The notes below the pieces were generated by a model. The model worked only from the letters and a program-made list of their open reading frames with translations, searched no databases and was not told where the DNA came from. From a virus (Duplodnaviria > Heunggongvirae > Uroviricota > Caudoviricetes), in the IMG/VR virus record IMGVR_UViG_2671180454_000012: 5,043 nucleotides of DNA; one strand, given 5' to 3'. Position 1 is the first letter of the stretch; each line of letters begins with the position of its first letter. Below are positions 478 to 622 of this stretch, one piece after another. The translations under genes and the position numbers were made by a program.

Positions 478-622
478 CGATACCCTTTATTTGGGTATCG
501 CGAGTAAGCCCCAAAATCTGGGTGTTACTCTTACTACCCAAACTACGGGTAGTTTCCGTAGTTTCATAGTCGAGTTGCAGATCTGCAACTCGCCACCAGT
601 TGCTAAGTGCATTTTTGCACTT
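478..622. other. Cluster of four consecutive stem-loops or palindromes in non-coding DNA
   Basis: 478-500: CGATACCC / GGGTATCG, 8 bp, 7-nt loop. 540-564: AAACTACGG / CCGTAGTTT, 9 bp, 7-nt loop. 571-592: the 22-bp palindrome. 605-622: AAGTGC / GCACTT, 6 bp. Confidence 0.6.
571..592. repeat. Perfect 22-bp palindrome CGAGTTGCAGATCTGCAACTCG
   Basis: Direct observation; exact twofold symmetry centred on AGATCT. Function unknown. Confidence 0.9.

What the first reader, a model, noticed from the sequence alone, without database searches (positions are those of the whole stretch)
478..622. Four consecutive hairpins including a perfect 22-bp palindrome in non-coding DNA
An 8-bp stem, a 9-bp stem, the palindrome CGAGTTGCAGATCTGCAACTCG and a 6-bp stem are packed into 145 bp with no credible ORF; the 73-aa plus ORF across them is low-quality. 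In the 9-bp hairpin the loop GTAGTTT duplicates the 3' arm, allowing two alternative pairings. Candidates are a structured RNA, a dimeric-protein binding site or cruciform, or a packaging or nicking site (cos/pac-like). Lying just downstream of head genes makes a packaging signal worth testing. I found no match to the P2/P4 or lambda cos sequences I remember.
Basis: seen in the sequence. Interest (0 to 1): 0.55.

Follow-up and report, generated by a model that had tools for sequence, protein, structure and literature searches.

The report
Conserved hairpin cassette beside satellite cos
The hairpins are real and belong to a 117-bp non-coding module that many E. coli phage satellites carry between their last gene and their DNA-packaging (cos) site; it is not the cos site, which lies about 130 bp away, and its function is unknown.

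Summary
Window 470-626 folds far better than shuffled sequence (z about -8 to -9 on either strand) and holds five hairpins, not four.

The window is the cos/att end of an E. coli PICI-type phage satellite. The real packaging site is next door. Window 314-402 copies the cos region of SfII/SfV/ST64B-type phages, and the 10-nt cohesive-end sequence is at 337-346.

The hairpins at 476-592 form a sharply bounded module. It occurs in about 700 of 5,426 complete E. coli genomes. It sits in three different satellite types, always in the same orientation between the last gene (a 93-aa ORF) and cos. It is absent from true phage genomes and from Rfam.

The module diverges 4-5 times more slowly than third codon positions of the adjacent gene. 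It is not coding. Covariation is weak, and there is no strand-specific wobble signal. It is missing from many related satellites, so it is an accessory part.

My best reading, at low confidence, is a structured 3' tail of the late operon ahead of the terminator at 421-446. The main rival is a DNA-level accessory of the cos end, because a correctly oriented Chi site abuts the module in most relatives.

The parts
476..592 (-). Conserved non-coding module ('block') of four consecutive hairpins. It always has the same orientation relative to the upstream 93-aa gene and the downstream cos.
   Evidence: The boundaries are sharp in three unrelated flank contexts. There are 42 distinct variants with 95% mean column identity. 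The block diverges 0.05-0.07 where third codon positions of the adjacent ORF diverge 0.22-0.33.
478..500 (.). Hairpin H1: 8-bp stem and 7-nt loop.
   Evidence: Two of its pairs change on both sides in some variants (C-G to T-A, A-T to C-G).
502..530 (.). Hairpin H1b: 6 + 4 bp with an internal loop.
   Evidence: Several of its pairs are disrupted in the most divergent (STEC711-type) variants.
533..564 (.). Hairpin H2: 9-bp stem 540-548/556-564, with an alternative 7-bp stem 533-539/547-553. It includes a polymorphic 9-bp tandem duplication.
   Evidence: The same stem sequence AAACTACG/CGTAGTTT recurs with a different 7-nt loop in satellites that lack the block.
571..592 (.). H3: perfect 22-bp palindrome CGAGTTGCAGATCTGCAACTCG.
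   Evidence: The central G-C pair becomes A-T in 3 variants and is broken in 10.
593..600 (-). Chi-like octamer ACTGGTGG on the gene-sense strand, one mismatch from GCTGGTGG, abutting H3.
   Evidence: An exact Chi occupies this position in 44 of 89 distinct contexts and a one-mismatch form in 24. That its orientation is the active one for RecBCD entering from the cos end is inferred from the established Chi polarity rule.
605..622 (.). Hairpin H4: 7-bp stem and 4-nt loop, outside the conserved block. It belongs to a recurrent unit of an IHF-like site followed by a hairpin.
   Evidence: The stem sequence differs between units while pairing is kept (GTGCA, GCGCA, GGCCC, CCTCA and others).
630..642 (+). 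Match to the IHF consensus WATCAANNNNTTR (TATCAACCAGTTA), overlapping the stop codon of the 93-aa ORF.
   Evidence: The motif recurs several times in the same intergenic region of related satellites. This is a sequence match only.
640..921 (-). Last gene of the satellite: a 93-aa protein of unknown function (phrog_1561).
   Evidence: The family is narrow (47 clusters at 50% identity). The AlphaFold model has low confidence (pLDDT 66.6) and shows three helices.
421..446 (-). Terminator-like 26-bp palindromic hairpin followed by a U-rich tail on the gene-sense strand.
   Evidence: It is kept, with changed stems, in related contexts.
314..402 (-). Copy of the cos region of SfII/ST64B/720R4-type helper phages. 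The cohesive-end sequence GGGGCTGGCA is at 337-346.
   Evidence: It is 92-95% identical to the phage segment between the HNH and TerS genes. The 10-nt cohesive end TGCCCGCCCC was determined for SfI (PMC3636060).

Best explanation
Window 476-592 is a sequence-constrained, non-coding accessory module of E. coli PICI-type phage satellites. It is not the cos site.

It lies on the transcribed strand, downstream of the last late gene (the 93-aa ORF at 921-640) and upstream of the terminator-like hairpin at 446-421, which ends the operon just before cos. So it most likely forms the highly structured 3' untranslated tail of the late (capsid/packaging) transcript.

In that position a stack of four or five stable hairpins would block 3'-to-5' exonucleases. 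It would also act as a barrier that keeps transcription and RNA decay away from cos, in the way REP-type 3' palindromes do.

Shown: the structure, the conservation, the fixed position and orientation, and the absence of coding.

Inferred: that the region is transcribed, and that the hairpins act at the RNA level.
For: - All genes of the excised circular element run in one direction: int ... capsid - 93-aa ORF - block - terminator - cos - attP.
- A terminator-like hairpin with a U-rich tail follows the block on the gene-sense strand. It is retained with altered stems in relatives.
- The RNA fold is extremely stable (z -9.1 on the gene-sense strand).
- The same intergenic region in satellites without the block is also filled with hairpin units whose stem sequences differ while pairing is kept. 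Those regions are more structured than coding controls (z down to -5.7).
- Orientation relative to the upstream gene is constant in every copy found.
- Three stem pairs show double changes that keep pairing.
- The block evolves more slowly than the adjacent gene, so it is not junk.
Against: - No RNA-specific signal was found. G.T and A.C mispairs in hairpins of this region are equally common on the sense strand (15 versus 13).
- The RNAalifold covariation term is about zero, and its consensus keeps only H1 and H3.
- Loops and spacers are as conserved as stems. A simple stabiliser does not need that.
- None of H1-H4 has a U tract.
- In cf-PICI-type contexts the terminator-like hairpin sits before the block rather than after it.
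- The block is missing from 19 of 49 related loci.
- No transcript data were available.
Confidence: 0.35

Rival explanations
1. The block is a DNA-level accessory of the cos end. It lies within about 250 bp of the last-packaged, probably first-injected, DNA end. Together with the abutting Chi and the nearby IHF site, it would form an end-proximal module. That module would help terminal cos handling by HNH-type terminases, or protect the free cos end from RecBCD.
For: - The block is always on the same (HNH or 'cosQ') side of cos.
- In L021, L013 and L058 a second cos-like site comes with a second copy of the block.
- All 34 distinct SfII-type cos contexts carry the block, against 25 of 34 cf-PICI-type and 0 of 4 lambda-PICI-type (the sample is biased).
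- An exact Chi abuts H3 in 44 of 89 contexts, in the orientation active for RecBCD entering at that cos end.
- Chi is strongly enriched in the satellite: 4 in the window against 0.15 expected, and 9 in the 10.8-kb element against 0.38 expected.
- The equal G.T and A.C mispair counts fit double-stranded palindromes.
- Loop sequences are conserved.
Against: - Helper phages with the same cos have nothing like the block. The phage-homologous stretch is only 314-402, which argues against recognition of the block by the helper terminase.
- The distance from block to cos varies from 75 to more than 260 bp, with other modules in between. In one large group the block is followed by unrelated DNA rather than cos.
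- Many satellites with the cf-type cos lack the block.
- RecBCD would degrade the block before reaching Chi.
- The association with cos may be plain linkage by descent.
Confidence: 0.25
2. The block has no function of its own. It is a mosaic linker or hitch-hiking segment that spreads among satellites by homologous recombination in a recombination-prone, Chi-rich region. Its palindromes would be made and kept perfect by template-switch mutation.
For: - Distribution is patchy across all three packaging-module types.
- Module boundaries are sharp, with unrelated flanks.
- A 9-bp slippage duplication is polymorphic.
- Low divergence could reflect recent spread rather than selection.
- The pattern matched no relevant species-representative genome; its only two hits there were chance matches in unrelated Bacteroidota.
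- The paired double changes could be template-switch events.
Against: - The block diverges about half as fast as first and second codon positions of the neighbouring gene over hundreds of pairwise comparisons.
- Orientation and position are invariant.
- The fold (z about -9) is much more extreme than that of the other hairpin units in this region.
Confidence: 0.2
3. The block is an operator array: palindromes bound by a dimeric DNA-binding protein of the satellite (for example the adjacent 93-aa protein or AlpA) or of the host.
For: - H3 is a perfect 22-bp palindrome, and a third GAGTTGCA half-site lies at 139-146 near att.
- Primary-sequence conservation is strong.
- The H2 arm sequence is reused with another spacer in other satellites.
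- The 93-aa gene is adjacent.
Against: - The four palindromes are all different, so one protein cannot explain them.
- Arms of 8-9 bp separated by 7 bp put half-sites on opposite faces of the helix.
- 19 of 49 loci with the 93-aa gene lack the block.
- The 93-aa protein has no recognisable DNA-binding domain.
Confidence: 0.1
4. The block is a trans-acting RNA, either a small RNA processed from the 3' UTR or an antisense transcript, or it encodes a small protein on the + strand.
For: - The + frame is open in all variants but one.
- A terminator hairpin suited to Hfq-type small RNAs follows the block on the gene-sense strand.
- Sequence conservation is high.
Against: - No sigma-70 promoter-like site was found on either strand in 1-1300.
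- There is no Rfam match at E <= 1.
- There is no consistent start codon.
- Variable sites fall 14:7:14 over the three codon positions.
- Only 17 proteins in 5.8 billion match the ORF, mostly partial ORF calls from short contigs.
- There is no Pfam hit and only marginal PHROG hits.
Confidence: 0.1

Closest known systems
Helper-phage cos sites carried by satellites (EcCICFT073 cos1/cos2, P4 cos, SaPIbov5 cos; lambda cosQ-cosN-cosB)
   Same: Like those sites, the block sits at the far end of the island next to att, in a satellite that copies its helper's cos (PMC6092414, PMC6739421). It lies on the side where lambda has cosQ.
   Different: The block has no similarity to any phage cos. It does not contain the cohesive-end sequence, which is at 337-346. 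It is present with at least two unrelated cos types and absent from many satellites that have a cos.
REP/BIME extragenic palindromes of E. coli (including the IHF-associated RIP/BIME-1 type); comparison from my own knowledge
   Same: Both are clusters of stable palindromic hairpins in the 3' untranslated region of an operon with an IHF consensus site nearby. REP elements are known to stabilise upstream mRNA.
   Different: The sequences are unrelated. The block is not dispersed in the chromosome: it has a median of one copy per genome and is found only in satellites. Its four hairpins are all different and form one fixed 117-bp unit.
Chi-dependent protection of linear or rolling-circle DNA from RecBCD, and the dependence of Chi activity on cos orientation in lambda; from my own knowledge
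   Same: A Chi octamer in the active orientation lies a few hundred bp inside the cos-generated end, and Chi is enriched in the element.
   Different: In this window the octamer next to the block has one mismatch. The hairpins have no known role in Chi function and would lie on the side that RecBCD degrades.
Intrinsic (Rho-independent) terminators
   Same: Both are stable G+C-containing hairpins downstream of the last gene.
   Different: H1-H4 have no U tract. Only the hairpin at 421-446 passes the terminator scan.

Membership tests
cos site of SfII/SfV/ST64B-type (HNH-dependent) phages | Sequence homology to the helper's cos region between the HNH and TerS genes | tested here: not met
   Window 450-640 has no match in 50,697 phage records. 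The homology is confined to 314-402.
cos site of SfII/SfV/ST64B-type (HNH-dependent) phages | Contains the 10-nt cohesive-end sequence (TGCCCGCCCC in SfI) | tested here: not met
   The sequence is absent from 478-622. Its reverse complement, with one mismatch, is at 337-346.
cos site (any) | DNA ends of packaged particles map to the site | not testable with these tools
   No virion DNA or read-start data were available.
Rfam RNA families (4,227 models, including AgvB, AsxR, Esr41, STnc100, C4 and self-cleaving ribozymes) | Covariance-model match | tested here: not met
   There is no match at E <= 1 in 400-700 on either strand. The only hits are spurious miRNA matches to the iterons at 4509-4747.
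Structured RNA supported by covariation | Compensatory base changes beyond what relatedness explains | tested here: inconclusive
   Three of 38 pairs change on both sides. The shuffle control is exceeded for changed cells but not for pairs or pair types. The RNAalifold covariation term is -0.08 kcal/mol. The sequences are 95% identical, so the test has little power.
Strand-specific RNA hairpins | Excess of G.U over A.C mispairs on the transcribed strand | tested here: not met
   Among 48 distinct hairpins of this intergenic region there are 15 G.T against 13 A.C mispairs on the sense strand.
Intrinsic terminator | G+C-rich stem followed by a T/U run | tested here: not met
   The scan of 1-1300 finds only 446-421 (- strand) and 1158-1170 (+ strand). 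None of H1-H4 is found.
Protein-coding gene (73-aa ORF 455-676, + strand) | Conserved start codon, codon-position bias of substitutions, and homologues | tested here: not met
   The start is not conserved. Variable sites fall 14:7:14 over codon positions. There is no Pfam hit. Only 17 proteins match, mostly partial ORF calls from short contigs.
REP/BIME-type extragenic palindromes | Many dispersed chromosomal copies sharing a consensus | tested here: not met
   There are 801 places in 704 of 5,426 genomes, with a median of one per genome. Every copy whose flanks were examined lies in a satellite.
Chi site | Exact octamer GCTGGTGG | tested here: not met
   In this window 600-593 reads ACTGGTGG, one mismatch. 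The octamer is exact in 44 of 89 related contexts.
IHF binding site | Match to WATCAANNNNTTR | tested here: met
   TATCAACCAGTTA at 630-642. This lies outside the finding's coordinates. Binding itself was not tested.
oriT / nicking site of mobilisable elements | Similarity to plasmid oriT regions, or an associated relaxase | tested here: not met
   The search of 72,556 PLSDB records gave three hits: a 10.8-kb circular copy of the satellite itself, a 4.9-Mb record, and a 32.6-kb record. No relaxase is annotated in the element.

The most novel reading that the evidence does not exclude
The 117-bp hairpin block, together with the abutting Chi, is a dedicated 'end module' of PICI and cf-PICI satellites. 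It would be a cis-acting DNA element at the last-packaged, first-injected cos end that governs terminal cos cleavage or protects the incoming or concatemeric satellite DNA from RecBCD-type nucleases. That would give satellites an end-protection device that their helper phages lack.
Probability: 0.15. Interest if true: 0.65.

Novelty: new variant of a known kind. Interest (0 to 1): 0.42.

Why it matters
PICIs and cf-PICIs are major vehicles of gene transfer in E. coli. Their packaging signals have been described only as copies or variants of helper cos sites.

A non-coding module that is shared by satellites with three different capsid and terminase strategies, and that is conserved better than the neighbouring gene, points to an undescribed cis-acting function. 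That function could lie in late mRNA handling, or in handling and protecting the cos end.

The module can be tested directly with one deletion in an established system such as EcCIEDL933 with helper HK106. It would also serve as a sequence marker for finding these satellites.

The same window shows that one 10-kb satellite carries cos copies of two helper families, which bears on helper range.

Tried and rejected
- **Hairpins as the cos site: rejected.** The cos homology and the cohesive-end sequence are at 314-402, and the block has no phage match.
- **Known RNA family: rejected.** Rfam gave nothing at E <= 1.
- **Coding ORF on either strand: rejected**.
- **attP arm, or Int/Xis binding sites: rejected.** The block is shared by islands at different attachment sites (clpS, tqsA, hpt). 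It lies more than 300 bp from the arm-type repeats.
- **oriT-like site: rejected**.
- **Independent small-RNA gene: unlikely.** No promoter-like site was found, and the flanks differ between contexts.
- **Obligate partner site of the 93-aa protein: rejected.** 19 of 49 loci with the gene lack the block.
- **Link to one packaging-module type: not found**.
- **Search for divergent homologues: failed.**
  - The protein-based scan of species-representative genomes returned nothing.
  - The pattern scan there gave only two chance hits in Bacteroidota.
  - The metagenome and viral scans gave only near-identical copies.
  - As a result, covariation analysis has little power.
- **Literature search for the sequence:** no hit.
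- **sRNAs located on O157 O islands in the review read (Arl, sRNA350, Esr41, Esr055):** assigned to OI-148, OI-43 and OI-93, none of which was linked to this island type.
- **Structure of the 93-aa protein:** too low in confidence to search by fold.

Full report
**1. The observation**

These are 478-485/493-500 (8 bp, 7-nt loop), 540-548/556-564 (9 bp, 7-nt loop), the perfect 22-bp palindrome at 571-592, and 605-611/616-622 (7 bp, not 6).

The loop of the second hairpin does repeat its 3' arm. GTAGTTTC occurs at 549-556 and again at 558-565.

Folding adds a fifth, imperfect hairpin at 502-530.

For 470-626 the folding energy is 8-9 standard deviations below dinucleotide shuffles. This holds as RNA on either strand and as DNA, and none of 200 shuffles folded as well. 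Coding controls from the same window give z between +0.4 and -2.1.

**2. Where the window comes from**

The genes on the minus strand are:
- a primase C-terminus (4774-5043);
- a small ORF (4225-4470);
- an SSB (3806-4228);
- a ClpP-like protease/major capsid fusion gene (1180-3047), split here by a frameshift;
- a 93-aa ORF (640-921).

In complete E. coli genomes the same arrangement is an island beside clpS. It carries int, an AlpA-family regulator, an Icd-like protein and a primase.

A 10,790-bp circular 'plasmid' record (NZ_CP148328) is the excised form. Its order is int - alpA - ... - primase - capsid fusion - tail assembly protein - DUF1441 (TerS-like) - 93-aa ORF - hairpins - attP, all in one direction. 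This is a PICI-type phage satellite, in the sense of PMC6092414.

**3. The real cos site is next door**

Window 317-399 is 92-95% identical to a segment of phages SfII, ST64B, 118970_sal3 and vB_EcoM-720R4. In those phages the segment lies between the HNH endonuclease gene and the small terminase gene. The alignment extends the match to about 314-402.

For the related phage SfI the cohesive end was determined as the 10-nt sequence TGCCCGCCCC, one base different from SfV (PMC3636060). Its reverse complement, GGGGCGGGCA, is present in the aligned phages. In the window it reads GGGGCTGGCA at 337-346.

The finding therefore begins 132 bp from the cleavage site, on the HNH side. By analogy with lambda and HK97, where packaging starts towards the terminase genes, this side is the last to be packaged. 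That step is inferred.

Two further cos-like segments exist. Window 954-1156 matches Stx phages. In VT1-Sakai that segment lies between Rz and the terminase genes. A second copy is at about 3640-3790. The core ACGGGGCGGGTCGGCGCGG resembles lambda cosN as I remember it, which is a recollection and not a test.

The hairpins themselves are not it.

**4. What the hairpins belong to**

A search with 405-640 finds matches in 704 of 5,426 complete E. coli genomes. A large class of hits covers only query positions 70-190, which is window 474-594, at about 94% identity.

Those hits lie at the end of cf-PICI-type islands at tqsA. These islands carry capsid, protease, portal, connectors, HNH, TerS and TerL, followed by a 93-aa homologue. 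This is the island type described as EcCIEDL933; I did not verify identity with that island.

A more divergent copy (77%) sits in a satellite with lambda-like capsid, decoration and TerS genes.

Alignment shows unrelated flanks and a shared block at 476-592. Across 85 distinct flank contexts the block starts and ends at the same bases in three architectures. It always has the same orientation relative to the upstream gene.

The block is absent from phage genomes. The 93-aa gene also has no close relative in phage genomes. The only hit is a partial, 48%-identical match in one Klebsiella phage. Among plasmid records the block occurs only in the excised satellite and two other records. It is absent from Rfam. 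A pattern search of one genome per species returned only two chance hits.

**5. Coding or not**

The + strand ORF stays open in nearly all variants. However, it has no conserved start. Three different N-terminal contexts occur, and one of them has no ATG. One variant is frameshifted.

Variable sites fall 14:7:14 over the three codon positions. There is no Pfam hit. Only 17 proteins in 5.8 billion match the ORF, mostly partial ORF calls from short contigs.

The region is not coding.

**6. Constraint**

I compared 2,211 pairs of satellites. Where third codon positions of the adjacent 93-aa ORF differ by 0.22-0.33 and first plus second positions by 0.105-0.138, the block differs by only 0.05-0.07.

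Loops and spacers are as conserved as stems.

Either nearly all 117 positions are under purifying selection, or the block has spread recently by recombination.

**7. RNA or DNA**

Three stem pairs show changes on both sides that keep pairing. Two are in H1 and one is at the centre of H3. More cells are changed than in shuffles. The number of such pairs and the number of pair types do not exceed the control.

RNAalifold keeps only H1 and H3, with a covariation term near zero.

I also tested for wobble asymmetry in 48 distinct hairpins from this intergenic region of all the satellites. The result was 15 G.T against 13 A.C mispairs on the sense strand. So there is no sign that one strand's RNA is what selection sees.

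These tests have little power, because the copies are 95% identical.

**8. Surroundings that bear on function**

- **Terminator.** A terminator-like hairpin with a U-rich tail follows at 446-421 on the gene-sense strand. It recurs, with altered stems, in relatives.
- **IHF site.** An IHF consensus lies at 630-642 and overlaps the ORF's stop codon. In satellites without the block, the same intergenic space holds several units of an IHF-like site followed by a hairpin. The stem sequences of these units differ while pairing is kept. Those regions fold moderately better than controls.
- **Chi.** The octamer next to H3 is an exact Chi (GCTGGTGG on the gene-sense strand) in 44 of 89 distinct contexts and one mismatch away in 24, including this window (ACTGGTGG, 600-593). 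By the established polarity rule, this orientation is active for RecBCD entering at the nearby cos end. Chi is also enriched overall: 4 copies in the window against 0.15 expected, and 9 in the 10.8-kb element against 0.38 expected.
- **Duplication with cos.** In L021, L013 and L058 a second, divergent cos-like site is accompanied by a second block.
- **Association with cos type.** All 34 SfII-type cos contexts carry the block. It is present in 25 of 34 cf-type and 0 of 4 lambda-PICI-type contexts. Many of these loci were fetched by block patterns, so the counts are biased.
- **Patchy presence.** Among loci fetched through the protein, 30 of 49 have the block. Presence does not follow the packaging-module type strictly.

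**9. Interpretation**

The block is a real, constrained, satellite-specific non-coding module, and an accessory one.

The best-supported mechanism rests on position. The block lies in what should be the 3' untranslated tail of the late operon, ahead of the terminator that stops transcription before cos. A stack of very stable hairpins there will act as a barrier to 3' exonucleases, and possibly to read-through.

I give this reading 0.35, for three reasons:
- the RNA-specific tests are negative or powerless;
- the conserved loops ask for something more specific than a stabiliser;
- in cf-PICI contexts the terminator-like hairpin is on the other side of the block.

The rivals and their weights are:
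- a DNA-level accessory of the cos end, involving Chi, IHF and co-duplication with cos (0.25);
- a functionless recombining linker (0.2);
- an operator array (0.1);
- a trans-acting RNA or small protein (0.1).

**10. Comparison with known systems, and novelty**

The block works most like REP-type 3' palindromes, or like accessory elements of the lambda cos region. It fails the membership tests for cos, intrinsic terminators, Rfam families, REP/BIME, oriT and coding genes.

I found no description of it. A full-text search for its sequence gave no hit, and the PICI and cf-PICI papers I read do not mention it.

I rate it a new variant of a known kind, namely cis-acting intergenic palindrome modules at operon or cos ends, of moderate interest.

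Noticed in passing
window 954-1156 and 3640-3790: There are two copies of a roughly 100-bp element that matches the cos region of Stx phages; in VT1-Sakai it lies between Rz and the TerS-like/TerL genes. The core is ACGGGGCGGGTCGGCGCGG on the minus strand. With the SfII-type cos at 314-402, this 10-kb satellite carries cos-like sites of two helper families, three in all. This recalls the cos1 and cos2 of EcCICFT073.
   Followed up: partly
window 299-306(-), 1999-2006(-), 4166-4173(+), 4192-4199(-); L166 whole: Exact Chi octamers are strongly enriched. The window has 4 against 0.15 expected, and none of 200 shuffles reached 4. The 10.8-kb excised element has 9 against 0.38 expected from base composition. 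This suggests reliance on Chi against RecBCD.
   Followed up: partly
window 1180-3047 (-): The ClpP-like prohead protease/major capsid fusion gene is split into ORFs of 381 and 252 aa by a frameshift near 1938-1990. Relatives have one intact gene of 629-637 aa (L001, L002, L012), so this copy is probably a pseudogene. The window also lacks the tail-assembly and DUF1441 (TerS-like) genes that L166 and L001 have between the capsid gene and the 93-aa ORF.
   Followed up: partly
window 4500-4750: A dense array of direct and inverted TGTTCACC/GGTGAACAG iterons flanks an A+T-rich stretch next to the primase gene. It is presumably the satellite's replication origin. It produced the only Rfam hits, which are spurious plant and animal miRNA models.
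   Followed up: no
window 630-642; L095, L116, L123, L132, L149 and L153 downstream of the 93-aa gene: A perfect IHF consensus overlaps the ORF's stop codon. In relatives without the block the intergenic space holds up to five or more units of 'TAACnnnnTGATAT + short hairpin'. The hairpin stems differ in sequence but keep pairing.
   Followed up: partly
L166 (NZ_CP148328.1, 1-10790): A 10,790-bp record deposited as a non-mobilizable E. coli plasmid is the excised circular form of this satellite. Its attP lies between two arm-type repeat sets (10663-10722 and 105-164), just upstream of int.
   Followed up: partly
L002 8280-8800 (E. coli O111:H8 7-58 72A): A capsid-fusion satellite without terminase genes carries, in place of the SfII-type cos, the cos-like region otherwise seen in cf-PICIs. 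That region has no match in phage genomes. The satellite might therefore depend on a cf-PICI's own terminase, which would make it a satellite of a satellite.
   Followed up: no
L021 1090-1380 (also L013, L038, L058): Between the two block copies lies a divergent second SfII-like cos. Beside it is an origin-like structure: three ATAACCCGCAA-type iterons on each side of an A+T-rich stretch.
   Followed up: no
L012 3600-9164 (also L025, L050): In one group of loci the block and terminator are joined directly to a truncated large-terminase gene. This is followed by portal, ClpP/capsid fusion and decoration genes of a Gifsy-like prophage, which suggests satellite-prophage recombination at the cos/terminase region.
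   Followed up: no
window 178-200 and 139-146: ACTACACC repeats lie at 178-200 and are probably integrase arm-type sites; related copies are found in the cf-PICI. A lone GAGTTGCA, which is a half-site of the 22-bp palindrome, lies at 139-146 near att.
   Followed up: no
window 3486-3637: A run of 152 N (masked sequence) interrupts the intergenic region upstream of the capsid operon.
   Followed up: no
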